Origin: Nitrosopumilus sp.
GTDB lineage: Archaea; Thermoproteota; Nitrososphaeria; Nitrososphaerales; Nitrosopumilaceae
DNA: 64,000 bases
Direction: 5' to 3'
Assembly (NCBI GenBank): GCA_965218695.1
Contig: OZ244651.1
Span: 224,001-288,000, forward strand
Notes under the pieces: generated by a model
What the model was told of the DNA's origin: nothing
Seen by the model: the letters and a program-made list of their open reading frames with translations, nothing else
The model's database searches: none
Part shown: positions 8,835 to 22,066 of the stretch, one piece after another
Layout of the letters: the number at the start of each line of letters is the position of its first letter
Position numbering within the stretch: the stretch's first letter is position 1
Made by a program: the position numbers and the translations under genes

Positions 8835-9584
8835 ATGCTGATTGTCCAGATATCTGATCTCCATGTAGGCTCCCAGTTCCTGCCAGAAAAGTTTGGTGTT
8901 TTGGAAGACGAGATCAACGGACTGAATCCGGATGTCATCGTCGTTACGGGGGATCTGACCAACGAGGGCCTGGTAGGCGAGTATGAGCGGTGCAGGACGC
9001 TGCTGGAGAGGCTTTCGACGGGGAGGAGGATGATTGCAGTCAGCGGAAACCATGACTACCGAAACACCGGCTACCTGCTGTTCAAAAAATTCTTTCCGTT
9101 TGAGCCGGTAAACGAGCTTGATGATGACACCGTTCTGGTCACTGTGGGAACTGCCAGACCGGACAGAAACGAGGGGGAGGTGGGATACAGGCAGAACCTC
9201 TGGCTGGAGCGAACCATGAAAAAGTATGCAGACCGGGTAAAGATTGTTGCAATGCATCACCACCTTATTGCCATTCCTGATACGGGATCGGATCAGCTTA
9301 CTGTGGTTGATGCAGGCGACGTACTGCGGACCGTACTGGATGCCGGGGTGGACGTTGTCATGTGCGGACACAAGCACAGGCCGTGGGCGTGGAACCTTGG
9401 CACCCTGACTGTCCTCAATGCAGGCACCCCCACATCCGAACGGGTACGCGGCCTGTTTGAGAACACCTACAACATCATCAGCATCTCCAACAGGCAGATA
9501 AGCATAGATCTCAAGATTGTAGGCGGAAAAAGGATCCCAATGGAGGAATTTGTGAGAGACTACAGCCAATCTCGCGTCGAATGA
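8835..9584 (+). CDS. Calcineurin-like metallophosphoesterase
   Basis: SDLH, TGD, GNHD, HH, GHKH motifs. Confidence 0.93.
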   Translation: MLIVQISDLHVGSQFLPEKFGVLEDEINGLNPDVIVVTGDLTNEGLVGEYERCRTLLERLSTGRRMIAVSGNHDYRNTGYLLFKKFFPFEPVNELDDDTVLVTVGTARPDRNEGEVGYRQNLWLERTMKKYADRVKIVAMHHHLIAIPDTGSDQLTVVDAGDVLRTVLDAGVDVVMCGHKHRPWAWNLGTLTVLNAGTPTSERVRGLFENTYNIISISNRQISIDLKIVGGKRIPMEEFVRDYSQSRVE

Positions 9585-9615
9585 TTTTTTTAGATACTGA
9601 TTCTAGGGCTCTTGT

Positions 9616-9702
9616 GCGGGGATCGCCTAGCCTGGTAGGGCGTGGGATTGCTAATCCCATGTCCGCAAGGACACGGGGGTTCAAATCCCCCTCCCCGCGC
9701 CA
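9616..9702 (+). tRNA. tRNA-Ser(GCT)
   Basis: Cloverleaf with GCGGGGA/TCCCCGC acceptor stem, TTGCTAA anticodon loop, long variable arm, GGTTCAAATCC T-loop, encoded CCA. Confidence 0.96.
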
Positions 9703-10158
9703 TTAAAACTTTATAGTGAGTTCCAGAAGAGTTATTCCATGGGACGAAGAAAGACTCAAAAGATTATTCGCACTGGCCCAAAGAACGCAACCACGGGAAT
9801 GTGTCCACTCTGCAAGACCATTGGCAGGGTGTTTCTCCTTGGCCCCCCCGGAGAAGAGAGGGGAAAGTGTGAAAAGTGCCGTCAGGAATTTGAATTATAG
9901 CCTTGCATGAAATCTGCCCTGATTTTTACAGTCCGCCGGCACCTGTCGCCGGATGCGCAGATCGCATGCGTCCTGACCGACCCATGCATTCTGAAGCCTC
10001 ATTCCAGAAACCCCCATGCAAGCACTGCATGTCCGTAGCATGCCTGTCCGATTTGTGCCTGCGCCTTCAGGCATCATCATCATCCTAGGAGTATCGTGCG
10101 TGAGGGATCCCGTGCCAAACCATTAACTTTTTAAGAAAAATCATTTCCATAGATCTGT

Positions 10159-10332
10159 ATGGATCCTCCTGAAGCAGAAACGGTATATGGTCGTGTTGCA
10201 AAACTTGAAGACGAGGTCGCCCTTCTTAGAAGCGAGATCGATATCATAAAAAAGGCAATGAGAAGCAAGATTATACGCCATGAGATAGCGATGATCAAGA
10301 ACGGCGCAGATGTAAATTCTATAGTTGATTGA
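10159..10332 (+). CDS. Small coiled-coil hypothetical protein (57 aa, MDPPEAETVYGRVAKLEDEV...)
   Basis: Manually translated ORF below the track cutoff; upstream TTTTAA box; heptad-like pattern. Confidence 0.7.
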   Translation: MDPPEAETVYGRVAKLEDEVALLRSEIDIIKKAMRSKIIRHEIAMIKNGADVNSIVD

Positions 10333-11086
10333 TCCTTTGTTTTGTCTCGTTGATCAACTCTAGAACGAAATCCATATCATCTGCATCCGGACTGATCTCC
10401 AGATATCTTGCAAGATCCTCCAGTCCCTGTTCCGGATTTGACATCCTGCACTCCAGAATCCCCCTGTCCCTGATGTCCGGAGGGGACTCTGGCATGACGG
10501 CCAGGATCATGTTTGTGCACCTGAGCGCCCTGTCATAATCAAGCATCCTGGCATAGGAATCCCTTGCCTCGTGCATCATCTCCACAAGAATCCATCTCTG
10601 GTTCATCTGTCCGGAGGCCCCGTGCCGCATCCTGTCTTGTTGCTGCAGTAGCAGCCTGCCGCGGGCCGTATCAAGGATCATGCCGCCGCATTCCACCATG
10701 ACAGATTCTGCATTCCTGAAAATCACAGCGTCCAGTCCGACAAATCTTGCAACCTCTGCATACAGGACGGCCATGCACATGACAGTCCCCCTCCTCCTGT
10801 CAATCAGGTTGTTTAGGAACGTGCCGGATGCATCACCATCTGCATCAAAGCCCAGATTCCCAAAGAGATGCTCGTTTAGCATCCGGACCCTGTCTGCCGG
10901 ATCATTAATGGCTCCTGCCTGCTCCCTCAGGGACATCCCAATCCTGCCTACTCTTCGGACATATTCGTCCACATCAAGATCCGGATGCTCCAGAATCTGT
11001 GCCGTCTTTAGCGCCTTTTCAACCAGATTGAATCCGGGATTCTCCACAAACGAGAGCCATTCGGCTACAAGCGGATCAAACTTCAA
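10319..11086 (-). CDS. SirB1/transglutaminase-like protein with C-terminal TPR
   Basis: LNEHLF..LGF, NLIDRRRG, RDRG..., YLE.SP.A.D; TTG start overlapping the upstream stop. Confidence 0.8.
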   Translation of the reverse strand: MKFDPLVAEWLSFVENPGFNLVEKALKTAQILEHPDLDVDEYVRRVGRIGMSLREQAGAINDPADRVRMLNEHLFGNLGFDADGDASGTFLNNLIDRRRGTVMCMAVLYAEVARFVGLDAVIFRNAESVMVECGGMILDTARGRLLLQQQDRMRHGASGQMNQRWILVEMMHEARDSYARMLDYDRALRCTNMILAVMPESPPDIRDRGILECRMSNPEQGLEDLARYLEISPDADDMDFVLELINETKQRINQL

Positions 11087-12300
11087 CTCTGCCGGCTCAT
11101 CTTTTTGACATACATCTGCGGATCCTTGAGCTCCCTTGTACTTGGAGGCACCTCGATTATCTTTTTGAATGCGCTCCTGCCAAGGCTCTCGTAGACTGTC
11201 CTGGTGAAATCCTTGCCCATACTCTTTCTGACCTGGTATGACGAAAAATCCGTCCCCATGAACGTGGCCAGGTAGTTTTGAAAGTCCTGATCGTCTCGCA
11301 GAATGTTCTCGATTGCAAATCCTGCCATCCCCTCCATTGCGGTAAATGCTGCATGGTGCTGCTGTATGGGAACAAGCCACCTCCTGTAGATGTCCAAGAG
11401 CTGAGGAACGGCTTGGCCGATCTGGGGATCTATCTCTACGTGCGTAAACGTCATGACGTCCGGCCCAATCTGCTCAATCAGAAAGTGATCCGGATTCAAA
11501 AAGAAGAACAGGTTGGCCCTCTTTGCAATTGGAAAGTCGTCTGGCACCGCCTGCAGCTGGCAGTACTCTGAGAGCCTGCTGACAGTATCGTCATCAAGTG
11601 ACAGTATTATGCCTGCAAGCTCCTCGTTGATTCTGTTGACCTCTGCTGCAGCACGCCTGTTTACCTGCTGCAGGTTCTCCTGCGCCGAGTGGATGATCTC
11701 CTCCAGGACTGTCATCTTTATGGCTCCCCTGTACCCTGAATTCACGTCTCCAAACTTTGACTCGTACGGTTCCCCCTGCTTGTGGAGGATTATCTGCGGA
11801 TACCTTGAGAGGATGAATCTGTTCAGGTATATCACGGAGTCCAGATAGTCGCCATACGTGGTGGTAATCTTTGATATGTACTGTATCGCATACGTCGAAT
11901 AAACAAAATACTTTGCCGTATCCTGCTGCATCAGTTCTGCTACCCTGCCGTGATCCTCCTTTGCAACCGCTGCAAAAAGATCCCTGACATACTCTGTTGC
12001 CCCCCTTTGTGCAAAGACCTTCCTGCCCTTGAGCATCTTCAGCTTGTCAAGCTCCGGAAACTCCAGCTGCAGTCCCTCCGGAATGCTGACTCCGAGGAAT
12101 TCCTCTGCCTTGCGTCTGTATGATGCAAGGGCCTCTGCTGCAACCTCGCTGATGTCCTGAAACCGCACCCTTTCACCGATATCCTCTGCGGCCATGGCAG
12201 CCATGCGTGTAATCTCCTTCTCCTCGTCGATCTCCACTGTCAGCTGGCCAAACAGGGCCTCGGCAAACTCCTCAAACTCACCCAATTCGAATAGGATCAA
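11083..12300 (-). CDS. Conserved hypothetical protein, possibly zincin-like
   Basis: 405-aa ORF; LEEIIHSAQ and AMEGMA motifs. Confidence 0.75.
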   Translation of the reverse strand: MILFELGEFEEFAEALFGQLTVEIDEEKEITRMAAMAAEDIGERVRFQDISEVAAEALASYRRKAEEFLGVSIPEGLQLEFPELDKLKMLKGRKVFAQRGATEYVRDLFAAVAKEDHGRVAELMQQDTAKYFVYSTYAIQYISKITTTYGDYLDSVIYLNRFILSRYPQIILHKQGEPYESKFGDVNSGYRGAIKMTVLEEIIHSAQENLQQVNRRAAAEVNRINEELAGIILSLDDDTVSRLSEYCQLQAVPDDFPIAKRANLFFFLNPDHFLIEQIGPDVMTFTHVEIDPQIGQAVPQLLDIYRRWLVPIQQHHAAFTAMEGMAGFAIENILRDDQDFQNYLATFMGTDFSSYQVRKSMGKDFTRTVYESLGRSAFKKIIEVPPSTRELKDPQMYVKKMSRQS

Positions 12301-12469
12301 GGCACACTACATTTAACGCTATCCTGTCCCCTGGCATGTCAGATCCGCTGTCCGTGCCATCTCAGAGCCATGGCATTTGAGAATAAACGGGCGTACAACC
12401 ATGCAGTACATGGTGAATCTGGTCGTCGGCGCCAGATGGCCAATCCCGTACCTGCCGCCACGATGCAGG

Positions 12470-13624
12470 GGGGGGGGGGTTGTCGCATAAATCAGTCAAG
12501 CCATAACCTGCCTTGCTTTTAGGTTCCGTCTGGCATGTACTAGGAATTCATCGCGGCTTTTTTGGCGTCATGCGTAGGCTACCCTGACTCCCAGGTTCGT
12601 GGTATGCTCCAGCCTGTTGAGGACCTCGATGTTCCAGCCTATCGCCTTTAGCAGCCCGAACCTTCTCTGGTTAACGTCCTTGCGGAACCTGCAGTACAGC
12701 TGGTGGTGTTCTGTCTCCTCGGCTCCGAATATTCCCTCGATCATCCCGCGCTGCTTGTAGAGGATGGCATCGAACAGTTTGGCTGCCTTTTTCCGATGTT
12801 TTTTGCCCCTGCTCTTTGCGTTCTTTCTCTGCTTGATGTTGGGAACCATGCCAAGCGCAAAGACGGCCTCGCAGTTGCTGTCAGAGTCGTATCCCTTGTC
12901 GGCGTTGAACCTCCACCCGGCAAAGATTCCCTTCATTCCAGCAATGCGGTTCAGCATCGTCTTGAGCACGGCAGTGTCCGTCGTGCGGTTGGACGTGATC
13001 CTGCAGGACAGTATGATCTGCAGTCCGACTGCCGCCGTCACGTGCCACTTGACGTACCGTTTCACCCTTTTTGGGACGAATTCGTGCCTGATTTTGTCCG
13101 GCCAGTCGGCGGTTTCGTACCTGTCCGTCTCCACTCCGGTGCTGTCTGCGGCCAGTATCCCTTCTATCGTGTCGGCTGCATCCATGCATTGGCGCGCAGT
13201 CTCCCTCAGGATTCGCTCCAGCCACCGGATTGGAATCGTCTCCAAGAATCGCGCGATCGTTGAATGGTCCGGAACCGGCTCGTGCCACGGAAGGTACCAC
13301 CCGGGCACGCAGTTTTGCGCGTCCCTGGACGTGAGACCCTCGAAGATCATGATGGCGCATATGCAGGCCATCTTCTCTGCCGAGTGTATTCTGGGTCTTC
13401 CGCGTTTACAGTTGCCTTGTTTTGCCGGCAGTGGGTTCCTCCGGACCAAAGACACGATAGTTTTTATCCGAAAGTCACGCTCTGTAGTATGTGCCCTGTG
13501 ATAACTATTCCAGTAGTTAGTCCTTCTCTTGTGATTCATTGAAGGAGGGCACACTTTATGATCCTTACCGGTATGAGTCAATGGTACGCGATCATACGCT
13601 CAACGTGATTTATGCGACAACCCC
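12470..13624 (-). mobile_element. IS5-like DDE element, transposase 12568..13581
   Basis: TIR ggggttgtcgcataaatca on both sides; TSD cgatgcagg at 12461-12469 and 13625-13633; ADSTG, ADKGYD, RGMIEGIFG motifs. Confidence 0.9.
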
Positions 13625-13668
13625 CGATGCAGGACAACAATGAAATACCAATACTGTGTGATAATGGT

Positions 13669-13974
13669 ATGGTAACACAGATCGTAATCCCGATAATCGT
13701 GGTGGCGATCATCGGACTGTCAGGATATTTCATATACAAGTTTGTGATATTTGATTTCTACTGCAAGAGATCCGTAGCCCAGATGCTTCGCGCATACAAT
13801 ATCCAAAAGACCCCCTCCCAGATAATCCAGGAGTACTATGCCCTGAAGGGCGAATCGATCCCTGCAAAGGACGTCATGGAACTCGAACGCAACTATCGGC
13901 AGACAGAGCCCGAGCAGTTCCTTGAAATGTATGATGCGGTGCGGGAAAGCCACAAGCGAAACGGAATAGAGTAA
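13669..13974 (+). CDS. Small membrane-anchored hypothetical protein
   Basis: N-terminal hydrophobic helix followed by a soluble domain. Confidence 0.75.
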   Translation: MVTQIVIPIIVVAIIGLSGYFIYKFVIFDFYCKRSVAQMLRAYNIQKTPSQIIQEYYALKGESIPAKDVMELERNYRQTEPEQFLEMYDAVRESHKRNGIE

Positions 13975-14116
13975 CACCAGTCCTCATGGGAGCATATTGC
14001 TCGGGTGTGAGGCATGTAGGTACGTCCGTGCCTGTTGCAGGAAACCGCTTCTGATGTGGCATATTGGGGAATATGGAAATAATTGAAAATAAAAATGAAG
14101 GAATTGGCGGCCAGTT

Positions 14117-14980
14117 TCAAGGATTTGTTGGGATTGCGATGAATGGCGTTCCGCCTTCGCCCACGACGAGCGGCAGTTTGCCGTCCCATGCTTGCGTCTT
14201 CAACCATTCAAGGTAGTTCGGGTTCGCGGCCAGCGCGTCGTTGATGATGGATATGGCTTCTGCCTCTCCCTTGGCCTCTGCGATGTTCGCGTTTGCGAGT
14301 CCTATGGAGTTTGCCTCCCTCTGTTTTGCCTCGACTTCTATCCTGAGCAGGTCGTTTTCAGCCTTTAGTGCCTTTTGCTCCGCTTCCACCTTTGACTCGA
14401 TTGCCTGCGAGAATAATGATGAAAACTCAAAGTCGGTGATCGATATTACCTCTGTTACTATTCCAAACTGGTTCAGCCTCTCTCGGATGGATACTTCTAT
14501 ATCGGATTTGACCAGTGGACGTTTCGTAATCAGCTCTTCTGCGTTGTAGGTTGCCGTTACCTGCTTGACCGTCTCTTCTATTGCGGGCTGGATAACCCTG
14601 TTTTCATAGTCCAGTCCCAGATTCTGGTACAGGGTGTGTATTGCCTCCTTGTCCGGGTGGTAGTTTACAGTTACAGTAGTCTCTACTGTCTGCAGGTCCT
14701 TTGATGAGCCTCTGGTGTTCTTTTCATACTTTAACGTACGAACCTCGATGTTGATTACCTCGTCCTGAAATGGCACCACAAAATGCAGCCCCTCACCCAG
14801 CGGAGGCTTTGTCAAATCCACTGCGTTCCAATGTAAAAGGACGCCCCTGTGCCCTGCCTCTACAATCTTTACTGATGCAAATATTGCAAGGCCAACTACT
14901 ATGAGTGCTATGATGGCTATTGCAACTCCTTTTGCCGCATTCGCGTTTACGTTGGTTCCTGGTGATCTGTATCTTGACAA
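14117..14980 (-). CDS. SPFH/prohibitin (band 7) family protein
   Basis: TM anchor, GEGLHFVVP, SKDLQ, EELITKR, AIE.KV.AEQ coiled coil. Confidence 0.93.
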   Translation of the reverse strand: MSRYRSPGTNVNANAAKGVAIAIIALIVVGLAIFASVKIVEAGHRGVLLHWNAVDLTKPPLGEGLHFVVPFQDEVINIEVRTLKYEKNTRGSSKDLQTVETTVTVNYHPDKEAIHTLYQNLGLDYENRVIQPAIEETVKQVTATYNAEELITKRPLVKSDIEVSIRERLNQFGIVTEVISITDFEFSSLFSQAIESKVEAEQKALKAENDLLRIEVEAKQREANSIGLANANIAEAKGEAEAISIINDALAANPNYLEWLKTQAWDGKLPLVVGEGGTPFIAIPTNP

Positions 14981-15062
14981 TTGTACATGTATGATGCATC
15001 CTTCTATTATATTATCCTTGGTAATAGCCTGTTGAATACATGATAACCCTGCCCACCCACCA

Positions 15063-15190
15063 TGTGTGACGGGCTGACCCCTGATTATGCATGGTCGTCA
15101 AGGCCTTCTTGTTGAATGGGGCTATCCGAGCTGCTGGGTTACTGGACTTCGAGTCCTGATAGATGCATGCAGCTTCCAGCCTGTCACACA
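15063..15190 (+). ncRNA. Predicted bridge (seek) RNA of IS110 copy 1
   Basis: 14-bp basal stem tgtgtgacgggctg / cagcctgtcacaca enclosing two stem/internal-loop/hairpin domains whose loops match target and donor sequences. Confidence 0.82.
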
Positions 15191-15200
15191 CGGAAAGGAG

Positions 15201-16277
15201 GTGAGAGAAATAGAAAAGAGTATTGGAATCGACATAGGAAAAAGGAAATGCGTGGCATGCGTGATGGAACACGACGGGGTGATCCTCGAAGAGTCATCGT
15301 ATGACAACACGGCCAAGGACGCGCTAGAGTTTGCCACGTCCGCAAAGGCCAGGTACGGCACATGCAGGGCAGTCTGCGAGTCCACCGGGAACCACTGGAT
15401 AAAGACTATCGATGCCTTTGAACACGTGGGAATCCCCATCGCCCTTGCAAACCCGTTCAAGATCAAGGCAATCGCGTCTGCCAGCATAAAAAACGACACC
15501 ATCGACGCAAGAACGCTTGCCCACCTGTTAAGATCCAACCTGATTCCCGCCTGCCATATTGGTTCGGCCGAATCTAGGGGGATAAAACAGATCCTCAGGT
15601 ACCAGATCCGCCTGGTGCAGGACAGGACGAGGGCGATAAATTTCGTGCACACGCTGACTGACAAGTATGACGTAAACCCGAAAGACGGCGGGAAAAACGT
15701 CTGGACCAAAAGGGTCCTGGCGTACCTTGAAGAAGCGGACGTGGAGAGTCCCCATGACAGGTTCGTCCTGGACCGCTGCATAGCCAAGATACGGCACTAC
15801 AATGACGAGATAAAAAAGACCGGGAACGAGATCAGGCGCTACGTCCGTGACGCCCACGGCCCAAAGATACTGATGAGCATTACCGGAATGGATGCGTTTT
15901 CTGCGGCGCTCCTGGCAGCAGAGATTGACACCATCGACAGGTTCGGGAACCCAAAAAAGTTCGTGTCCTGGGCGGGCATGTGCCCGACGCTCCACCAGTC
16001 AGGCGACACGTCATACCACGGCAGGATGAAAAAGGACTCGAACCGGAAGGTCAACTGGGTCATGGTCCAGTGCGCGCTGGTGGCAGTGAGACACGACCCG
16101 AGGATGAAGGAATACTACGTGCGCCTCATGAAGAGGCACAGGCACAACATCGCCATAACGCACGTCGCAAACAAGATGCTGACGATCATCTGGCACATGT
16201 TGACAGAAGACAACCTGTACGAGGACAGAAACGAAAAGCTGTACCGCGCCAAGATCAGACAAGTCATGAGGGCGTAA
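15201..16277 (+). CDS. IS110 DEDD recombinase
   Basis: GIDIGK, CESTG, KNDTIDA..LA (DEDD RuvC-like), GM.P..HQSG serine motif; start uncertain (GTG at 15201). Confidence 0.95.
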   Translation: MREIEKSIGIDIGKRKCVACVMEHDGVILEESSYDNTAKDALEFATSAKARYGTCRAVCESTGNHWIKTIDAFEHVGIPIALANPFKIKAIASASIKNDTIDARTLAHLLRSNLIPACHIGSAESRGIKQILRYQIRLVQDRTRAINFVHTLTDKYDVNPKDGGKNVWTKRVLAYLEEADVESPHDRFVLDRCIAKIRHYNDEIKKTGNEIRRYVRDAHGPKILMSITGMDAFSAALLAAEIDTIDRFGNPKKFVSWAGMCPTLHQSGDTSYHGRMKKDSNRKVNWVMVQCALVAVRHDPRMKEYYVRLMKRHRHNIAITHVANKMLTIIWHMLTEDNLYEDRNEKLYRAKIRQVMRA

Positions 16278-16635
16278 TCCGGGAACCGGTGATGATAGGC
16301 GGTACCGGATCTAGCGGATGCTGTGCACGAATTATGGGAATAATGAAACATGCTTGCATGAATGCTGGGGGACGCCCCCCAGACCCCCCGGAAGGGATTA
16401 TGCATGTCACTCCGCGGGGCAACAAGCCACGTTTTCTGCGGATCTGGCAGGATTCTGCATGCAGGTAATGCTTAAGAAGACAAAAAACACACCCAAAATG
16501 ACAAGCTGGACGCAAAACCTGGATAAGTCCGGGGATGGGTTACATAGATGCATAATTACGCCTAGCTGCAGTGAGTGATGTTGACTGTGTTCTAGACCGA
16601 AAAAGCTAAAGATCAGTGGATCCTAGAGTGTCGGA

Positions 16636-17610
16636 TTGAAGACGGACAACGAAAAATACATCAGGCGCGGCCAGGCATTAATTATTCGCGATGACCCGGA
16701 GAGATGCATCGAGGTCAAAAAGGCCAACCGTCACAAGGTCGGGGCTCCTTTCCAGTATGCAGACTCGTTCTTTGCCTCCCTGGCGGCAGTAAAATCGATG
16801 ATCCACATCCCCTACAGGAACCTGATGGGCATGGTCGTGGAGGTGCTCAGGGAGGAGCAAGTGCCCCACTATACCACCATCTTCAGAAGGATCCAGTCGC
16901 TGGATGTCCAGAGGAATGGCAGAATCATCACGGTCACCGGCAGCAAGGGCGCTGCAATCAGGCTTGCAGTGGATTCTACCGGCCTCAAGCAGCACAACAG
17001 GGGGGAGTGGATACGGCAAAAGTGGAAGGTAAGACGCGGATTTGTAAAGATGCACATTCTGGTTGACGTGGATACAAAAAAGATACTGGCAGTCCGTGTC
17101 ACCGATGATCGGACAGGGGATTCTCCCATGTTCGTTCCGCTGCTTGATGACGCTCTGGAGAACTGCGTGGGTCCGACATCAGAGTCCCGTCATGCTGGCA
17201 GTCCCGCAAAATGTTCTGCGTATGGCGATGGCGCTTACGCCTCTCGGGACAACCTAAAGGCATGCAGGGAGCGCAACGTGACCCCGCTCATCAAACTCAA
17301 GGTAAGCTCCACCCCGAAAGGAAAGGGCGCAGGCGACGTGTGGGGCATGGCAGTCCGGGACCAGTTTGGCGGCTCTGATCCCAATCGGGTGAAATGGCTG
17401 CCCGATGATGAAAAGAAAAGTAATCAGGAGGCGTGGAAGACTCGAGTCGGATACGGCAAAAGGTGGATTGTGGAGATTGTGTTTTCTGCATTCAAGAGAA
17501 TGTTCGGGGAACACCTGTACTCATTGAAATGGAAGAACATGATCCAGGAGGTCAATCTCAAGGTGGCCACCTACAACAAGCTGATAGACATGGGAGCAGG
17601 GGCAATGTAG
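16636..17610 (+). CDS. IS5-family DDE transposase, intact ORF
   Basis: VDSTGLK, KMH..VD, GDGAY, RWIVE.VFS motifs; TTG start. Confidence 0.92.
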   Translation: MKTDNEKYIRRGQALIIRDDPERCIEVKKANRHKVGAPFQYADSFFASLAAVKSMIHIPYRNLMGMVVEVLREEQVPHYTTIFRRIQSLDVQRNGRIITVTGSKGAAIRLAVDSTGLKQHNRGEWIRQKWKVRRGFVKMHILVDVDTKKILAVRVTDDRTGDSPMFVPLLDDALENCVGPTSESRHAGSPAKCSAYGDGAYASRDNLKACRERNVTPLIKLKVSSTPKGKGAGDVWGMAVRDQFGGSDPNRVKWLPDDEKKSNQEAWKTRVGYGKRWIVEIVFSAFKRMFGEHLYSLKWKNMIQEVNLKVATYNKLIDMGAGAM

Positions 17611-17941
17611 AGTCGGATAGGCGAATCCGGTACAAGTCTTGGGTGACTGAGTTGAATTATGCATCTATGTAACCCATCCCCGGACTTATCCAGGTTTTGC
17701 GTCCAGCTTGTCATTTTGGGTGTGTTTTTTGTCTTCTTAAGCGTTACCTGCATGCAGAATCCTGCCAGATCCGCAGAAAACGTGGCTTGTTGCCCCGCGG
17801 AGTGACATGCATAATCCCTTCCGGGGGGTCTGGGGGGCTGGCCCCCCAGCATTCATGTAGAAACATCCCACAATTCCCATAATTCGTGCACAGCATCCGC
17901 TAGGGCCGGCACTGCATTTACTGACACCACCGGTTCCGCGT

Positions 17942-19021
17942 CTACGCCTCCTTCATGACTTGTCTGATCTTGGCGCGGTACAGCTTTTCGTTTCTGTCCT
18001 CGTACAGGTTGTCTTCTGTCAACATGTGCCAGATGATCGTCAGCATCTTGTTTGCGACGTGCGTTATGGCGATGTTGTGCCTGTGCCTCTTCATGAGGCG
18101 CACGTAGTATTCCTTCATCCTCGGGTCGTGTCTCACTGCCACCAGCGCGCACTGGACCATGACCCAGTTGACCTTCCGGTTCGAGTCCTTTTTCATCCTG
18201 CCGTGGTATGACGTGTCGCCTGACTGGTGGAGCGTCGGGCACATGCCCGCCCAGGACACGAACTTTTTTGGGTTCCCGAACCTGTCGATGGTGTCAATCT
18301 CTGCTGCCAGGAGCGCCGCAGAAAACGCATCCATTCCGGTAATGCTCATCAGTATCTTTGGGCCGTGGGCGTCACGGACGTAGCGCCTGATCTCGTTCCC
18401 GGTCTTTTTTATCTCGTCATTGTAGTGCCGTATCTTGGCTATGCAGCGGTCCAGGACGAACCTGTCATGGGGACTCTCCACGTCCGCTTCTTCAAGGTAC
18501 GCCAGGACCCTTTTGGTCCAGACGTTTTTCCCGCCGTCTTTCGGGTTTACGTCATACTTGTCAGTCAGCGTGTGCACGAAATTTATCGCCCTCGTCCTGT
18601 CCTGCACCAGGCGGATCTGGTACCTGAGGATCTGTTTTATCCCCCTAGATTCGGCCGAACCAATATGGCAGGCGGGAATCAGGTTGGATCTTAACAGGTG
18701 GGCAAGCGTTCTTGCGTCGATGGTGTCGTTTTTTATGCTGGCAGACGCGATTGCCTTGATCTTGAACGGGTTTGCAAGGGCGATGGGGATTCCCACGTGT
18801 TCAAAGGCATCGATAGTCTTTATCCAGTGGTTCCCGGTGGACTCGCAGACTGCCCTGCATGTGCCGTACCTGGCCTTTGCGGACGTGGCAAACTCTAGCG
18901 CGTCCTTGGCCGTGTTGTCATACGATGACTCTTCGAGGATCACCCCGTCGTGTTCCATCACGCATGCCACGCATTTCCTTTTTCCTATGTCGATTCCAAT
19001 ACTCTTTTCTATTTCTCTCAC
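17942..19021 (-). CDS. IS110 DEDD recombinase, copy 2
   Basis: Protein identical to copy 1 except the last residues (MKEA vs MRA). Confidence 0.95.
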   Translation of the reverse strand: MREIEKSIGIDIGKRKCVACVMEHDGVILEESSYDNTAKDALEFATSAKARYGTCRAVCESTGNHWIKTIDAFEHVGIPIALANPFKIKAIASASIKNDTIDARTLAHLLRSNLIPACHIGSAESRGIKQILRYQIRLVQDRTRAINFVHTLTDKYDVNPKDGGKNVWTKRVLAYLEEADVESPHDRFVLDRCIAKIRHYNDEIKKTGNEIRRYVRDAHGPKILMSITGMDAFSAALLAAEIDTIDRFGNPKKFVSWAGMCPTLHQSGDTSYHGRMKKDSNRKVNWVMVQCALVAVRHDPRMKEYYVRLMKRHRHNIAITHVANKMLTIIWHMLTEDNLYEDRNEKLYRAKIRQVMKEA

Positions 19022-19031
19022 CTCCTTTCCG

Positions 19032-19159
19032 TGTGTGACAGGCTGGAAGCTGCATGCATCTATCAGGACTCGAAGTCCAGTAACCCAGCAGCTCGGATAG
19101 CCCCATTCAACAAGAAGGCCTTGACGACCATGCATAATCAGGGGTCAGCCCGTCACACA
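19032..19159 (-). ncRNA. Predicted bridge RNA of IS110 copy 2
   Basis: Reverse complement of 15063-15190. Confidence 0.82.
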
Positions 19160-19215
19160 TGGTGGGTGGGCAGGGTTATCATGTATTCAACAGGCTACTT
19201 GGTAACGGACGTGCA

Positions 19216-19294
19216 GTACGGACTCGCCCAATACATTTCTAGGGACGAATTTGCATGAATCATGCCTGTGTTTATAAGGGATCCGAGTGCGTAC
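19216..19294. mobile_element. ~80-bp MITE, copy A
   Basis: gtacggactcg...cgagtgcgtac TIR; flanks gacgtgca / ggcgtgca (7/8); similar to 35730 and 50192. Confidence 0.8.
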
Positions 19295-19432
19295 GGCGTG
19301 CATGCTCGCCGCCTCCAAAATCAGGCGTGTCCATTTGCATGATTCATGTCCATGCAGATCCCGTAGGCCGGATTTTGCAAATGTGGAGAACGCCCGGGCA
19401 TATCAACAGATTTATCTCATGACTGCATACGG

Positions 19433-19903
19433 TTGGTAATGGAGCACGACTTTATCTGGGCGTACATGCTCATATTTCTGGCAATCCCACTTGCAAGAAT
19501 CATTCCCAGACTGCTGTCCCGAAGAGCCCGGGGTGACCGATACCCGGACATTGGGCAGGAATCAAGCCCCAAGGCGTCCAAAGGGGAGCCGGAGCCGTCA
19601 AAGCATGAAGACATCTCAGGACATGAAGACCCATCAGGAAAAGATGCCGACAGGCACCAAAAGATACCAGAGCCATCCAAGCCGCAGACAAAAGAGATGG
19701 TCGTTCTTGGCGAGCTTCACAGGGGGGCCAGAACCTTTGAGAACATTCAAAAGAATACGGGCATGGACGGCGGCGTCCTTGAGAGGATCCTTGAGAAACT
19801 GGAGAAAGACGGCCTGCTAAAGGTGGTCCAAAGACAGCGCATGCTTGGTTCCAGAGTCGAACTGCACCCCACCGACAAGGGGTTCAGGGAGTACTACTCT
19901 TAG
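19433..19903 (+). CDS. Membrane-anchored winged-helix protein
   Basis: N-terminal TM helix, low-complexity linker with an 18-bp duplication, LE.LEKDGL...TDKG wHTH. Confidence 0.75.
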   Translation: MVMEHDFIWAYMLIFLAIPLARIIPRLLSRRARGDRYPDIGQESSPKASKGEPEPSKHEDISGHEDPSGKDADRHQKIPEPSKPQTKEMVVLGELHRGARTFENIQKNTGMDGGVLERILEKLEKDGLLKVVQRQRMLGSRVELHPTDKGFREYYS

Positions 19904-20029
19904 TCGTGTGGCTCGTATCTGGTGACAAGGCCGCTGCATGCTCCTGTGTCCAACAAACATGATGCAATGCCTGAAGAGATTGACTGGGGCGTGGAAAACA
20001 CCATGCGCATTCCTCTGCATTATTTTATA

Positions 20030-20144
20030 TGCCGGGGGCGGGTTTCGAACCCGCGACCTCCAGATTATGAGTATTGCCTTAGTTGGAGAAACCCTGGAGT
20101 TTGCCAATCAAGCTGGCACTCTAACCAGGCTGAGCTACCCCGGC
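20030..20144 (-). tRNA. tRNA-Met(CAT), elongator type, with 40-nt intron at 30/31 (20073-20112)
   Basis: Spliced product gives CCAGA-CTCATAA-TCTGG anticodon arm; exact bulge-helix-bulge at the junctions. Confidence 0.92.
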
Positions 20145-20227
20145 ACGTTACTTGTGTGAATCCATAGGGAATTAAATGCTACGCCGAGCAAGCCGAAGGA
20201 GTCAAAACCTCACTCCATACAACGGAT

Positions 20228-22066
20228 TCATCTGGACATCTCTGACCATTTTGGTTTCTCGTTTTGAACCCACAGGAACTTCTTTTGCAGTGCCGACGTG
20301 TACATCTTCTCCCATTCTACACCCACATGATCAGCCCATGCCTTGAACATGCGGGGATCGATATAGTTTCGAAGGGATGTGCCGAGGTTGTAGTCCTTGG
20401 TCTTCCCTGTCAGGGTGATCTGCAGTTTCATCTTCTCGATCTGCATACCATGTCTTTCCTTCTGCCCTCTGATCTGCTTGTTCAATCTCCTGATTCTTTT
20501 GTTTTTGTTCTTCCTCTGAATGTCGGTTTTTGGTTCACTGTCTTTTACCTGCGTCCGCCTCTTCTCTGTTTTTTCCCATGGCTTTTTTTCCATCCTGATC
20601 TTGAGATTGTCCCTCCTCTTTTGCAGTCCCTTTTCAAACGTCTTGGGGATGGTTCTCTTGTGGTTGCATTTTTTGGCGGCCTCAAGGTTTGCCAGTTTTG
20701 CGTGATGAATCTTTGCATCTACACTCTTTTCTTTTATCGTGTCGTGTTTTGCAAGATAATCCTTGACTGCCTTGGTGGCAAGATAAGTCCTGAACACCTT
20801 GGCAGTCATTCCCGGTACTATTTTTGAATAGTATGCATTGACCCGTCTTGAGGTGATCTTGTCAAAGATCTCATCCTTTGGCTTCTTCTTGCCAATTATC
20901 CTCTTGAGGTTTTCCTGAAACTGCTTGTCATCACCTTCTGCCTTTACCGTCTTCTGCCATTCTACGCTGTCTTTTCCAAGAAAATCAAATTTTACTGCAT
21001 TCTCCGTGATGGTGATATGCTCCTTTCTCAGGGTAGTGGCACCTACCGTGTCTGCCTCGTCAGAATCCTTCTCGTCACCTACCCTCATCGCAGTACTGTA
21101 AATAAGATAGCATACAGTAGCGATTGTACGGGTTTTTTCATCCTTACTTTTCATGTCCCGCACCATCTCTTTCAGTATCTCGCCAATCTCCTTTCCCAGC
21201 GTTGCTACCTTGTCGTACTTTTCCTTGTCCTTGTCCTGCTTTACTCCGGCAGTATCTGCAAGCCACACATACTTTGTGTTCCCTGTAAGGTGATCCGTCC
21301 ACTTGGCAAGCCATGTCGCATCACTCTGGGAGACGATCTTGCCCCAATCTCCCTTGGGCACCTTGGCCTGCTTTCCAAGGTTCAGCGTCACATCCTTGAA
21401 GTCAACCCGTGGTTTCCACCTGCCCCTGAGCGGATGATCGCCCCTTCCGATGAATATTCCGGGTGGCTCTGCCATGTAGTTTGCAATATCCACCTTTTTC
21501 CCGTTCATGATGGCAGTGCCGTATTTCCTTTTCAATTTATCCCGTTCTGCATTCTTTTCTTTTGCACGCGCCTCTCTTTCTTCTTTCTTCTTTTTTGCAC
21601 GCGCCTCTCTTTCTTCTTTTATTTTCTTTGCAAATTCCTCTCTTTCTTCCTTTGTCATCTTTGCCATGGCTTCCTTTTCCTCCTTTCTCTTCTTTATTCG
21701 CGCCTCTTTCTCTTCCTTTCTCTTCTTTATTCGCGCCTCTTTCTCTTCCTCCTTCCTTTTCTCCCGCTCGGCTTTTTCCTCGTCGACTATCCTGTAGGCG
21801 TCTGAAAAATCGATATCCTTGTAGGAGATCTTTCTGAATTCTCGGTTCAGGGTTTTGGCAAAATCCACCGTAAAGTTTTTTTGAAACACACTGTCCTGTA
21901 CGTATGGCGTGTCCTTCTTTTTTGCCCACTGATAAACCATCTCTTCCTGTTCAATGTTCAGGTCTACCTCCTCCCCACGAATCCTTATCTTGATCTGGCG
22001 GGACTCGTATGCCGGCGGGAACCGTATTCCGTTATGCTGTAGGGCTTTCCATTTCATTCTCTTCAA
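20228..22066 (-). CDS. DNA topoisomerase IB
   Basis: WK.LQHNG..FPP, EPPGIF.GRG.HP.RG, R.GDEKD, FLGKDS, AKVFRTY, CNHKR, LGTSLRNYIDPR motifs. Confidence 0.96.
   Translation of the reverse strand: MKRMKWKALQHNGIRFPPAYESRQIKIRIRGEEVDLNIEQEEMVYQWAKKKDTPYVQDSVFQKNFTVDFAKTLNREFRKISYKDIDFSDAYRIVDEEKAEREKRKEEEKEARIKKRKEEKEARIKKRKEEKEAMAKMTKEEREEFAKKIKEEREARAKKKKEEREARAKEKNAERDKLKRKYGTAIMNGKKVDIANYMAEPPGIFIGRGDHPLRGRWKPRVDFKDVTLNLGKQAKVPKGDWGKIVSQSDATWLAKWTDHLTGNTKYVWLADTAGVKQDKDKEKYDKVATLGKEIGEILKEMVRDMKSKDEKTRTIATVCYLIYSTAMRVGDEKDSDEADTVGATTLRKEHITITENAVKFDFLGKDSVEWQKTVKAEGDDKQFQENLKRIIGKKKPKDEIFDKITSRRVNAYYSKIVPGMTAKVFRTYLATKAVKDYLAKHDTIKEKSVDAKIHHAKLANLEAAKKCNHKRTIPKTFEKGLQKRRDNLKIRMEKKPWEKTEKRRTQVKDSEPKTDIQRKNKNKRIRRLNKQIRGQKERHGMQIEKMKLQITLTGKTKDYNLGTSLRNYIDPRMFKAWADHVGVEWEKMYTSALQKKFLWVQNEKPKWSEMSR
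21560..21746 (-). repeat. Two in-frame 33-bp tandem duplications inside topoisomerase IB
   Basis: 21681-21713 repeated at 21714-21746; 21560-21586 repeated at 21593-21619. Confidence 0.88.

What the first reader, a model, noticed from the sequence alone, without database searches (positions are those of the whole stretch)
15063..15190. Bridge RNA readable from sequence: target guides, donor guide and both handshake segments match
Seen: a basal stem (15063-15076 with 15177-15190) encloses two domains. Domain 1, closed by cccc/gggg, has attatgCA (15084-15091; reverse complement of target TGcataat), a hairpin, then cttgtTG-aat (15108-15117), which matches the left junction cctgtTGaat with one G-U wobble. 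Domain 2, closed by agctgc/gcagct, has tgggttac, the hairpin ggac-ttcga-gtcc, then atagaTG-cat (15159-15168), which exactly matches the right junction. Known: IS621-type bridge RNAs have target- and donor-binding loops, with handshake nucleotides that pair after strand exchange. Inference: a compact (~130 nt), reprogrammable archaeal bridge RNA with a TG/CA core and 3-nt handshakes favouring insertion.
Basis: partly seen in the sequence, partly recalled or inferred. Interest (0 to 1): 0.9.

Follow-up and report, generated by a model that had tools for sequence, protein, structure and literature searches.

The report
Archaeal insertion-sequence bridge RNA, confirmed
A 128-base structured RNA gene at the front of a jumping gene in an archaeon carries short guide sequences that match the DNA it jumped into and its own ends; it is a real but differently wired relative of the known bridge RNAs used for programmable DNA insertion.

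Summary
Window 15063-15190 folds as described (-55.9 kcal/mol, z -4.4). It lies in the left non-coding end of an IS110-family element (15035-16550; recombinase ORF 15204-16277). A second copy lies inverted at 17662-19187.

A covariance model found the same RNA upstream of the recombinase gene at 60 places in 59 loci from 20 or more archaeal genomes. Across them, all four guide segments track the DNA they should pair with:
- Left flank against the 3' side of loop 1: 4.30 of 5 matches, against 1.51 when permuted.
- Right flank against the 5' side of loop 1: 4.02 of 6, against 1.72.
- 5' side of loop 2 against the first 5-6 nt of the element.
- 3' side of loop 2 against the last 5 nt of the element plus TG.

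Uninterrupted target sites exist in the same genome.

- The wiring is not IS621-like. The 5' sides pair with the sense strand, as in IS1111-type seekRNAs, and the ends have IS1111-type subterminal inverted repeats. Yet the RNA lies upstream of the gene.
- "tgggttac" is the guide for the left end.
- Family-wide support for handshakes covers only 2 nt in loop 1 and is weak in loop 2.

No expression data could be obtained. Haloferax ISHvo9 shares the architecture.

The parts
15035..16550 (+). IS110-family element, copy 1. It is 1516 bp counting the right copy of the TG core; the left copy of the core is 15033-15034.
   Evidence: The ends were set three ways: comparison with copy 2 and other genomic copies, copy-to-copy alignments that stop at these junctions, and uninterrupted target sites.
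15063..15190 (+). Bridge (seek) RNA gene, 128 nt. A basal stem (15063-15076 with 15177-15190) encloses two internal-loop domains.
   Evidence: The MFE fold gives z -4.41. Models R1/R2 find it upstream of the recombinase gene at 60 places in 59 loci. 26 of 34 pairs show compensatory changes.
15083..15091 (+). Loop 1, 5' side: GAUUAUGCA. This guide pairs with the sense strand of the core plus right target (TG CATAAT, 16549-16556).
   Evidence: Reverse-complement identity to the right flank is 4.02 of 6 against 1.72 +/- 0.17 permuted, 0 of 5000 permutations as high, over 47 events and 31 guides.
15093..15105 (+). Loop-1 hairpin GGUC-GUCAA-GGCC.
   Evidence: All 4 pairs show compensatory changes and 99.4% of cells are paired.
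15108..15114 (+). Loop 1, 3' side: CUUGU+UG. It has the sense of the left target plus core (CCTGT TG, 15028-15034), so it pairs with the antisense strand.
   Evidence: Identity to the left flank is 4.30 of 5 against 1.51 +/- 0.15 permuted, 0 of 5000, over 54 events and 37 guides. Per-position identities are 0.65, 0.87, 0.89, 0.94 and 0.94.
15115..15117 (+). Loop-1 handshake AAU, equal to the first 3 nt of the left end (AAT, 15035-15037).
   Evidence: Across 59 hits, positions 1-2 match the left end (0.86, 0.95) but position 3 does not (0.14).
15135..15140 (+). Loop 2, 5' side: UGGGUU. This guide pairs with the sense strand of left-end nt 1-6 (AATACA, 15035-15040). This copy has one mismatch, G15137 opposite A; most relatives have UGUGUU.
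   Evidence: Pairs with LE nt 1-6 average 4.92 against 3.88 +/- 0.16 permuted, 0 of 5000, over 26 distinct combinations. Covarying types include GCUUC/GAAGC, GCCUU/AAGGC, GCUUU/AAAGC and UAAAG/CTTTA.
15144..15156 (+). Loop-2 hairpin.
   Evidence: All 5 pairs show compensatory changes.
15159..15165 (+). Loop 2, 3' side: AUAGA+UG. It has the sense of the right end plus core (ATAGA TG, 16544-16550).
   Evidence: Six variants (ATAGA, ATAGG, ACAGA, ACAGG, ATGGA, ATGAG) each equal their own element's last 5 nt. The junction so defined is where copies diverge, in 48 of 91 pairs exactly.
15166..15168 (+). Loop-2 handshake CAU, equal to right-target nt 1-3 (CAT, 16551-16553).
   Evidence: It is exact in this copy. 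Family-wide it is weak: identities 0.32, 0.23 and 0.30, and position 1 gives 0.32 against 0.20 permuted with 53 of 5000 as high.
15204..16277 (+). Recombinase gene, 357 aa from a GTG start preceded by GGAGGTG.
   Evidence: Pfam DEDD_Tnp_IS110 (1.2e-23) and Transposase_20 (7.5e-25). NCBIfam NF033542 'IS110 family RNA-guided transposase' scores 232 bits against a cut-off of 140. In the alignment to IS621 (8wt6, E 2.6e-12) the D, E, DxxD and SG residues align.
15040..15049 (+). Left arm of the subterminal inverted repeat, ATGATAACCC. It sits 5 nt inside the left end, or 7 nt counting the core.
   Evidence: Local alignment of the left end against the reverse complement of the right end.
16537..16545 (+). 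Right arm of the subterminal inverted repeat, GGGTTACAT. It sits 3 nt inside the right end.
   Evidence: 9 of 10 positions match with a 1-nt gap in this copy; relatives reach 12-30 bp. Offsets (5,3) occur in 13 of 32 distinct elements.
17662..19187 (-). Copy 2 of the element, inverted. Its bridge RNA is at 19032-19159, identical to copy 1, and its recombinase ORF is about 17942-19018.
   Evidence: 98% identity; model hit at G000:C1:243032-243159.
15025..15034 (+). Tip of the terminal inverted repeat of an IS5-family element (TAGCCTGT+TG), cut off from its body by copy 1. The mirror tip is at 19188-19197.
   Evidence: Intact copies of the IS5-family element elsewhere read TAGCGTGTTGCATAATT at both ends.
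16551..17661 (+). Body of the targeted IS5-family element (transposase ORF 16636-17610). It is flanked overall by the 8-bp direct repeat CTTGGTAA (15017-15024 and 19198-19205).
   Evidence: Pfam DDE_Tnp_1, NCBIfam IS5 family NF033579 at 200 bits, and the sequence itself.

Best explanation
Window 15063-15190 is the gene for the bridge (seek) RNA of an active-looking IS110-family insertion sequence in a thaumarchaeal genome.

The RNA has a basal stem and two internal loops.
- Loop 1 reads the target. Its 5' side (GAUUAUGCA) pairs with the sense strand of TG+CATAAT. Its 3' side (CUUGU-UG) pairs with the antisense strand of CCTGT+TG.
- Loop 2 reads the element's own joined ends. Its 5' side (UGGGUU) pairs with the sense strand of the first six bases of the left end. 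Its 3' side (AUAGA-UG) pairs with the antisense strand of the last five bases of the right end plus TG.
- The two or three bases after each UG can pair with the partner duplex after strand exchange (handshake).

By analogy with IS621, a tetramer of the DEDD/Ser recombinase would hold both duplexes on one RNA. It would exchange strands at the shared TG/CA core and insert the circularised element without duplicating the target.

Shown here: the structure, its conservation, covariation of all four guides, the junctions, and the empty sites.

Inferred: transcription, recombinase binding, the circular intermediate, and that the strand bound by the 3' sides (the antisense strand) is exchanged first.

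Relative to the genes, the wiring is rotated by 180 degrees compared with IS621. It matches the IS1111 type in guide order and in subterminal inverted repeats with 7-nt and 3-nt terminal extensions. But the RNA lies upstream of the recombinase gene, as in the IS110 group.

The programmed target is the terminal inverted repeat of an IS5-family element.
For: Fold: -55.9 kcal/mol, z -4.41, 0 of 200 shuffles as good.

Protein: IS110-family recombinase domains are present, and NF033542 is above its cut-off. The catalytic residues align with IS621.

Distribution:
- Model R1 found a full-length RNA directly upstream of the recombinase homologue in 21 of 32 loci, plus one hit cut by a contig end.
- It found 60 matches in 59 loci after more copies were fetched.
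- R2 hits 16 places in the own genome and 6 of 151 genomes sampled from the phylum.
- The protein occurs in 31 of 201 genomes of the family.

Stems: 88.6% of cells are paired and 26 of 34 pairs have compensatory changes. 0 of 500 shuffles reach this, and slid controls give 31-47% paired.

Guide covariation:
- Left flank: 4.30 of 5 against 1.51 +/- 0.15. With one event per guide (n=37): 4.22 against 1.45.
- Right flank: 4.02 of 6 against 1.72 +/- 0.17. With one event per guide (n=31): 4.06 against 1.60.
- All of these are 0 of 5000 permutations.
- The left-end guide gives 4.92 against 3.88 +/- 0.16, 0 of 5000.
- The right-end guide has six sequence variants, each equal to its own element's end.

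Junctions and empty sites:
- Guide-defined junctions agree with copy-to-copy divergence. On the right, 48 of 91 pairs stop exactly there and 36 more within +1 to +8. On the left, 33 of 96 stop at the core and most of the rest within 12 nt outside it.
- Uninterrupted sites TAG-CGTGT-TG-CATAAT-T lie at both ends of other copies of the IS5-family element.

Recent activity and relatives:
- Four copies are 95-100% identical, which argues for recent activity.
- Haloarcula and Haloferax (ISHvo9) relatives, at 34% and 30% aa identity, show the same layout.

IS1111-type features were taken from passages of PMC11187229 and PMC11208160.
Against: - No evidence of a transcript or of protein binding was obtained.
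- 24 of 47 right-flank events match at 5 or more of 6 positions in register. Five events (L007, L063, L071, L096, L047) reach 4 or more of 6 only with a 1-nt shift. Several match poorly: L088 1/6, L048 1/6, L084 2/6.
- The loop-2 handshake covaries only weakly with the target.
- In this copy the left-end guide has one mismatch, G15137 opposite A15038.
- The uninterrupted sites read CGTGT where the occupied sites read CCTGT or CCCGT.
- The pair counts rest on an alignment fitted to the model.
- Many insertions lie in repeated DNA, so not all events are independent. The one-event-per-guide tests partly answer this.
- Placement of the protein with the IS1111 rather than the IS110 clade was not tested.
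Confidence: 0.88

Rival explanations
1. It is an IS621-type (IS110-group) bridge RNA in the strict sense. [quoted passage not shown]
For: The RNA lies in the left end upstream of the recombinase gene, as in the IS110 group (PMC11208160 passages). Both loops are simple internal loops. The lengths resemble IS621: 9 nt on the 5' side and 5+2 nt plus a handshake on the 3' side.
Against: - The 5' side of loop 1 is antisense to the right flank, and the 3' side has the sense of the left flank.
- The 5' side of loop 2 is antisense to the left end, and the 3' side has the sense of the right end.
- This is the reverse of the IS621 rule.
- The ends carry 9-30-bp subterminal inverted repeats, not 2-3 bp.
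- The core is TG, not CT.
Confidence: 0.03
2. The structure is only a 5' leader of the recombinase mRNA, or a set of DNA sites bound by the recombinase. The resemblance to the junctions would be a by-product of repeated end sequences, with no RNA-guided step.
For: - No transcript or binding data were obtained.
- The RNA ends 13 nt before the start codon, and a Shine-Dalgarno-like GGAGGTG follows it.
- Loop-2 segments match the element's own ends, which could also be protein-binding repeats.
Against: - The loop-1 segments change together with the flanking host DNA across 37 and 31 different guide sequences. End-binding sites or a translational leader would not do that.
- Stems keep pairing through compensatory changes.
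- The protein family is the RNA-guided recombinase family.
Confidence: 0.05
3. The guide RNA is real, but these particular copies are relics that no longer move.
For: - The left-end guide of copies 1-4 carries a mismatch that other subfamilies lack.
- Contigs of four runs showed no empty site or circle junction.
- Several other copies in the genome are truncated or interrupted.
Against: - The ORF is intact with catalytic residues aligned.
- The two window copies have identical RNAs and are 98% identical overall, and two more copies are 95% identical.
- Both ends of one IS5-family element were hit independently in the expected orientation.
Confidence: 0.15

Closest known systems
IS621 bridge RNA (IS110 group; Durrant et al. 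2024, PMC11208160; Hiraizumi et al. 2024, PMC11208158; passages read)
   Same: - One RNA has a target-binding and a donor-binding internal loop, each with a long 5' guide, a hairpin, and a short 3' guide that ends on the core and is followed by handshake bases.
- The RNA gene lies upstream of a DEDD/Ser recombinase.
- A shared 2-nt core sits at both junctions, with no target duplication.
   Different: - The strand rule is rotated. Here the 5' sides pair with the strand that has the sense of the genes.
- The core is TG/CA instead of CT.
- The RNA is 128 nt, against 177 nt (the 177-nt figure comes from DBL nucleotides 110-177).
- The subterminal inverted repeats are long.
- The left-end guide does not reach the core.
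- Protein similarity is remote (E 2.6e-12, two partial stretches).
IS1111-type seekRNA / bridge RNA (ISEc11, ISPa11, ISKpn4; Siddiquee et al. 2024, PMC11187229; passages read)
   Same: - The top-strand complement lies 5' of the bottom-strand match.
- The ends have subterminal inverted repeats with terminal extensions of 7 nt on the left (counting the core) and 3 nt on the right.
- Repeated DNA is targeted.
   Different: - The RNA lies upstream of the recombinase gene instead of downstream. The paper lists only a few such exceptions by position of the non-coding region: ISMtsp17, ISHvo10 and ISAcp5.
- The donor loop is a simple internal loop, whereas Durrant et al. describe multi-loop donor sites in many IS1111 members.
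- Similarity to the IS1111-group protein IS5075 is low (19.9% identity, E 2e-11).
ISHvo9 of Haloferax volcanii pHV4 and an unnamed Haloarcula plasmid element
   Same: - TG core, extensions of 5 nt (7 with the core) on the left and 3 nt on the right, and 13-15-bp subterminal inverted repeats.
- The upstream non-coding region holds, in order: a segment antisense to the right flank, a hairpin, a segment equal to left flank+TG+first end bases, and CATAGGTGAAT equal to the right junction.
   Different: - Only 30-34% aa identity.
- Model R2 scores the Haloarcula RNA weakly (15 bits, E 0.015) and does not find the ISHvo9 one.
- Their left-end guide was not identified.
- One library search for 'ISHvo9' found 2 papers and listed 1, which is on another subject.
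[quoted passage not shown]
   Same: An IS110-family element is programmed to land at a fixed position and orientation inside the terminal inverted repeat of another transposable element, hitting both ends.
   Different: The host domain, the target (an IS5-family element) and the position of the RNA all differ.

Membership tests
IS110 family in the broad (ISfinder/NCBIfam) sense: bridge-RNA-guided DEDD recombinase elements | Recombinase with DEDD_Tnp_IS110 (RuvC-like) and Transposase_20 domains | tested here: met
   Pfam gives 1.2e-23 and 7.5e-25. NF033542 scores 232 bits against a cut-off of 140.
IS110 family in the broad (ISfinder/NCBIfam) sense: bridge-RNA-guided DEDD recombinase elements | Catalytic D, E, D, D and Ser residues | tested here: met
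   In the phmmer alignment to IS621 (8wt6), IGID, cE(s/a)TG, DT(i/v)DAR and (q/e)SG align. The residue names D11/E60/D102/D105/S241 come from PMC11208158.
IS110 family in the broad (ISfinder/NCBIfam) sense: bridge-RNA-guided DEDD recombinase elements | Site-specific insertion at a short core present once in the target and at both junctions, without target duplication | tested here: met
   TG sits at 15033-15034 and 16549-16550. Uninterrupted sites carry a single TG. The same holds in relatives.
IS110 family in the broad (ISfinder/NCBIfam) sense: bridge-RNA-guided DEDD recombinase elements | Non-coding RNA with loops whose bases covary with target and donor | tested here: met
IS110 family in the broad (ISfinder/NCBIfam) sense: bridge-RNA-guided DEDD recombinase elements | The RNA is expressed and bound by the recombinase; a circular intermediate exists | not testable with these tools
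   No RNA run was listed, and contigs showed no joints.
IS110 group (IS621 type) | Bridge RNA in the left end, upstream of the recombinase gene | tested here: met
   The RNA is at 15063-15190 and the ORF starts at 15204.
IS110 group (IS621 type) | [quoted passage not shown] | tested here: not met
   The reverse assignment is found for all four guides.
IS110 group (IS621 type) | Only very short (2-3 bp) subterminal inverted repeats | tested here: not met
   9/10 bp in this copy and 12-30 bp in relatives.
IS1111 group | Subterminal inverted repeats (7-17 bp; usually 11-13 bp) | tested here: met
   ATGATAACCC against ATG-TAACCC in this copy, which is short and has one gap. Relatives reach 12-30 bp, and ISHvo9 has 14 bp perfect.
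IS1111 group | Terminal extensions beyond the repeats of 7 bp (left) and 3 bp (right) | tested here: met
   TG+AATAC on the left and AGA on the right. Offsets (5,3) occur in 13 of 32 distinct elements, and a difference of 2 is kept in most others. Counting the core with the left end is a convention.
IS1111 group | In the RNA, the top-strand complement lies 5' of the bottom-strand match | tested here: met
IS1111 group | Guide RNA encoded downstream of the recombinase gene | tested here: not met
   All four guides lie upstream. The 273-nt downstream non-coding region is conserved but shows no guide covariation.
IS1111 group | Recombinase related over its full length to that of IS1111 | not tested
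   Only a tblastn hit to IS5075 was obtained (19.9% identity, E 2e-11). No tree with named references of both groups was built.

The most novel reading that the evidence does not exclude
The thaumarchaeal elements, together with haloarchaeal ISHvo9-like elements, form a third architectural class of bridge-recombinase systems. The class would combine IS1111-type crossover polarity and subterminal repeats with a compact two-internal-loop RNA placed 5' of the recombinase gene. It could be the intermediate state in the proposed move of the bridge RNA between the element's ends. It would also be a natural, heavily reprogrammed archaeal system, with at least 37 guide variants here, that elements use against other insertion sequences by landing in their terminal repeats.
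Probability: 0.35. Interest if true: 0.65.

Novelty: new variant of a known kind. Interest (0 to 1): 0.5.

Why it matters
Bridge and seek RNAs are the basis of a new class of programmable recombinases. Only bacterial IS110-group systems (IS621, ISCro4, IS622) have solved structures or are engineered in the papers I saw.

This finding adds three things:
- A well-defined archaeal family with a short (128 nt) RNA.
- A natural data set of about 50 insertions that shows which positions are programmable: 5 nt + TG on one side and 6 nt + core on the other.
- An arrangement that mixes the hallmarks of the two known groups, which bears on how the RNA moved between the element's ends.

The same layout in ISHvo9 of Haloferax volcanii, a genetically tractable archaeon, makes it testable.

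It also shows one insertion sequence programmed to disrupt the terminal repeats of another.

Tried and rejected
1. Rfam. No family covers the RNA. An E-value search of 14000-20000 gave only a chance sR32 match elsewhere. The gathering-threshold scan of the whole window gave two tRNAs.

2. Expression. No RNA holder was listed.

3. Laid contigs. Contigs of four runs of unrecorded kind were laid on 14700-16900. They gave no joints, no empty site and no circle junction, only loose ends into other copies.

4. 'tgggttac' as a same-sense copy of the right end (GGGTTAC at 16537-16543). It is an 8 of 8 match in this copy. Across 24 distinct elements the match is not above permutation: 4.25 against 4.01, with 444 of 5000 as high. 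Rejected in favour of pairing with the left end.

5. Locating right junctions from the loop-1 guide alone over more than 1 kb. This was a poor test. It agreed with the other method in only 22 of 48 events, and half of the 22 distinct junctions it named were false places. I replaced it with copy-to-copy alignments.

6. A 10-nt copy of the loop-1 5' guide (GATTATGCAT) plus CAACAAG in the downstream non-coding region (about 16397-16430). It looked like a decoy target. However, the motif is conserved in subfamilies whose guides differ, so it does not covary. An alignment fold of that region showed 1 of 82 pairs with compensatory change.

7. Sigma-70 and terminator scans. They are not informative for an archaeon.

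8. Other searches:
- The search for related loci in genome contigs gave only 2 loci.
- Model R2 found nothing convincing in the Rhizobium and IS5075 loci.
- An ungapped inverted-repeat search missed the gapped subterminal repeat. The same search on the IS5075 locus was not followed up.

9. Left undone. A protein tree to place the recombinase between the IS110 and IS1111 clades was not built, for lack of named IS110-group reference sequences in the collections. Supplementary Table 5 of PMC11208160 may already list predicted RNAs for archaeal ISfinder entries.
Full report
**What is there**

The interval 15063-15190 lies between the left end of an insertion sequence and its recombinase gene.
- The gene (15204-16277, 357 aa from a GTG preceded by GGAGGTG) carries Pfam DEDD_Tnp_IS110 and Transposase_20.
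- It scores 232 bits on NCBIfam NF033542, 'IS110 family RNA-guided transposase', against a cut-off of 140.
- In a phmmer alignment to the solved IS621 recombinase (8wt6, E 2.6e-12; ISCro4 9t56, E 1.7e-11) the acidic residues and the SG serine align.
- A longer ORF from ATG 15087 would read through the RNA. That extension is not kept in other subfamilies, whose open frames run from 371 to 412 aa.
- A second copy lies inverted at 17662-19187.

**The observation**

The minimum-free-energy fold of the 128 nt is the described structure. It gives -55.9 kcal/mol against -40.3 +/- 3.5 for shuffles, z -4.41, with 0 of 200 shuffles as good. With flanks included, z is -3.05. No Rfam family matches.

**Ends of the element**

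The two window copies share sequence from tagcctgtTG…aatac on the left to …atagaTGcataatt on the right.

The own genome (2.63 Mb, 9 contigs) holds 28 matches to the element, from 100% down to 65% identity. Alignments of their left and right ends show that conserved element sequence starts after TG and ends with TG. The flanks differ between subfamilies.

Local alignments between copies with different flanks stop at these junctions:
- On the right, 48 of 91 pairs stop exactly there and 36 more within +1 to +8 nt.
- On the left, 33 of 96 pairs stop at the core, and most others within 12 nt outside it, as expected if targets resemble each other.

The joined flanks were then sought in the genome. 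There is no exact copy, but there are 20 sites with one mismatch (about 3 expected by chance).
- Among these are six that read TAG-CGTGT-TG-CATAAT-T. They include both ends of at least two other copies of an IS5-family element (C1:1128407/1129519 and 1877360/1878472).
- Their inner sequence continues exactly as the right flanks of window copies 1 and 2.

So the element sits in the terminal inverted repeat of an IS5-family element (body 16551-17661; transposase 16636-17610). Both repeats of that element were hit, in mirrored orientation. The target holds a single TG that appears at both junctions. The IS5-family element itself is flanked by the 8-bp direct repeat CTTGGTAA (15017-15024, 19198-19205).

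**Relatives**

- The recombinase is found at E <= 1e-30 in 31 of 201 genomes sampled from the same GTDB family.
- The only named near relative is in a Nitrosopumilus MAG, at 66% identity.
- The own genome's SSU rRNA scores 1468 bits on the archaeal model and 1099 on the bacterial one.
- A covariance model built from eight diverged copies found a full-length RNA immediately upstream of the gene in 21 of 32 loci, plus one hit cut by a contig end.
- After fetching more copies from multi-copy genomes, it found 60 matches in 59 loci.
- On that alignment (46 distinct rows), 88.6% of cells pair and 26 of 34 pairs show compensatory changes. 0 of 500 shuffles reach this, and slid controls give 31-47% paired. 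The alignment is fitted to the model. On the first, MAFFT-made alignment the figures were 93.4% and 7 pairs.
- A second model hits 16 places in the own genome. It hits 6 of 151 genomes sampled across the phylum, one of them in another family.

**Guides: loop 1 (target)**

For each hit I cut the four loop strands by alignment column.

Junctions for the loop-1 tests were located with the loop-2 strands only, and the reverse for loop 2. This keeps the tests non-circular.

The 3' strand of loop 1 has the sense of the left flank:
- Per-position identities for the 7 nt before the core are 0.13, 0.20, 0.65, 0.87, 0.89, 0.94 and 0.94.
- The five adjacent positions give 4.30 of 5 against 1.51 +/- 0.15 in 5000 permutations, with none as high (54 distinct events, 37 distinct guides).
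- With one event per guide the result is 4.22 against 1.45.

The 5' strand of loop 1 is antisense to the right flank:
- Per-position identities are 0.77, 0.77, 0.72, 0.62, 0.57, 0.57 and 0.23.
- That gives 4.02 of 6 against 1.72 +/- 0.17, with none of 5000 as high (47 events, 31 guides).
- With one event per guide the result is 4.06 against 1.60.

Results against the reading:
- 24 of 47 right-flank events match at 5 or more of 6 in register.
- Five reach 4 or more of 6 only with a 1-nt shift (L007, L063, L071, L096, L047).
- A few hardly match at all (L088, L048, L084).
- The abstract of a 2026 preprint (10.64898/2026.08.31.748434; search listing only) reports half-match recombination for bridge recombinases. 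That would allow such sites, but I did not read the paper.

**Guides: loop 2 (donor)**

The 5' strand of loop 2 pairs with the sense strand of the first 5-6 nt of the left end.
- Pairs run UGUGUU/AACACA, UGUAU/ATACA, GCUUC/GAAGC, GCCUU/AAGGC, GCUUU/AAAGC, UAAAG/CTTTA and UGUGUA/TACACA.
- The score is 4.92 pairs against 3.88 +/- 0.16, with none of 5000 as high (26 distinct combinations).
- In the window's copy (UGGGUU against AATACA) one position is mismatched.

The 3' strand of loop 2 has the sense of the last 5 nt of the right end plus TG. Six variants each equal their own element's end, and that point is where copies diverge.

UG is kept in the 3' strand of both loops in 58 of 59 hits each.

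**Handshakes**

- The three bases after UG in loop 1 (AAU) equal left-end nt 1-3 in this copy. Over 59 hits the identities are 0.86, 0.95 and 0.14. There are a few covarying cases: GAU with GAA ends in 3 of 10, and ACU with ACT in 1 of 1.
- The three bases after UG in loop 2 (CAU) equal the first three target bases in this copy. Over 47 events the identities are 0.32, 0.23 and 0.30. Position 1 gives 0.32 against 0.20 permuted, with 53 of 5000 as high. Against the target named by the RNA's own 5' guide, positions 1-2 give 0.80 against 0.52, with 27 of 5000 as high.
- In this copy the target begins CAT and the left end begins AAT. Only the first handshake base therefore tells donor from target.

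**Comparison with known systems**

[quoted passage not shown] Here every assignment is swapped between the 5' and 3' sides. Geometrically this is the same complex with the DNA turned by 180 degrees. The strand bound by the 3' guides, and presumably exchanged first, is the one antisense to the genes. That last step is inference.

Siddiquee et al. report exactly this order for IS1111-type seekRNAs: the top-strand complement lies 5' of the bottom-strand match. They report the opposite order for the IS110-type ISEc21 (passages of PMC11187229). They give three IS1111 hallmarks:
- subterminal inverted repeats, usually 11-13 bp;
- terminal extensions of 7 bp on the left and 3 bp on the right;
- a downstream non-coding region, with a few exceptions (ISMtsp17 upstream; ISHvo10 and ISAcp5 on both sides).

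Durrant et al. give long left ends and 2-3-bp repeats for the IS110 group, and long right ends and 7-17-bp repeats for IS1111.

The window's element compares as follows:
- Its repeat is ATGATAACCC against ATG-TAACCC. It starts 5 nt (7 with the core) from the left end and 3 nt from the right end.
- The offsets (5,3) recur in 13 of 32 distinct relatives, with repeats up to 30 bp. The G135/G065/G145 subfamily has almost none.
- Both non-coding regions are long (169 and 273 nt), but all four guides lie in the upstream one.

The element therefore has IS1111-type ends and polarity with an IS110-type RNA position.

**Beyond the phylum**

The best plasmid-borne relatives are haloarchaeal, at 34% identity; ISHvo9 is at 30%. 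IS5075 of the IS1111 group is at 19.9%.

The Haloarcula element and ISHvo9 both have a TG core, 5(+2)/3-nt extensions and perfect 13-15-bp repeats. In each, the upstream region holds a segment antisense to the right flank, a hairpin, a segment equal to left flank+TG+end nt 1-2 or 1-3, and a segment equal to the right junction. ISHvo9 has GCTGTATTC, GTGCTGACT and CATAGGTGAAT there, and no such match in its downstream region apart from the right junction itself.

On what is in print:
- A search for 'ISHvo9' found 2 papers, with 1 listed, on another subject.
- A search for 'bridge RNA' + 'archaeal' + 'IS110' found 17. Of these I read passages of one (10.1101/2024.06.21.599552). It counts 662 archaeal IS110 recombinases but, in the passages seen, describes no archaeal bridge RNA.
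- Supplements could not be read, so a prediction may already be tabulated there.

**Verdict**

The finding is real and correctly read as a bridge RNA. It is a new variant of a known kind rather than a new kind. Expression, binding and activity are untested.

Noticed in passing
window 15017-15034, 16551-17661, 19188-19205: One IS5-family element (8-bp direct repeat CTTGGTAA) has both terminal inverted repeats split by inverted copies of the IS110-family element. Intact copies elsewhere in the genome read CGTGT where the occupied ones read CCTGT or CCCGT. That is one mismatch to the guide at a position that is 87% matched family-wide. It could mean escape from targeting, or change after insertion.
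   Followed up: partly
window about 16397-16430 (and the same place in copy 2): The downstream non-coding region contains GATTATGCAT, identical to the loop-1 5' guide, and 15 nt later CAACAAG, the complement of the loop-1 3' guide. The motif is conserved in subfamilies with other guides, so it does not covary. Its meaning is unexplained. The whole 273-nt region is strongly conserved.
   Followed up: partly
L084 (G065:C1:242186-244826) and L087: Two different subfamilies lie head to tail sharing one TG. The right end of one (…CATACACAGA-TG) is the left flank of the next (AAAGCCTGTA…). The second element's left-target guide (CCAGA-UG) matches the first element's end, so one element seems programmed to land at the end of another.
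   Followed up: no
G000:C1:192792-195551 and 2047998-2050753 (L005, L007): Two subfamily copies are about 2.75 kb instead of about 1.5 kb. About 1.2 kb is inserted in their downstream non-coding region, and they lie in duplicated flanking DNA.
   Followed up: no
G000, nine places, e.g. window 38150 (C1:262150): A repeated sequence GGTACTTCCATGTTTGATGTTGCCG-GCTGTTGCATAAT-TGTCTTGTG… occurs 9 times in the genome. It carries a near-target (one mismatch) that is unoccupied in all nine.
   Followed up: no
window 20030-20144 (-): Rfam calls a tRNA 115 nt long. ARAGORN, run over 9000-21000, did not report it. It may be an intron-bearing archaeal tRNA.
   Followed up: no
window 12568-13581 (-) and 14117-14980 (-): Just left of the element lie another DDE transposase gene (Pfam DDE_Tnp_1, 1e-09) and an SPFH/Band 7 gene (3.1e-29). 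The region is rich in insertion sequences.
   Followed up: no
L061, L062 (G006): Two copies lack the first 8 nt of the left end (AACACATG), yet their left flank still matches the left-target guide at 6 of 7. They lie in duplicated DNA.
   Followed up: no
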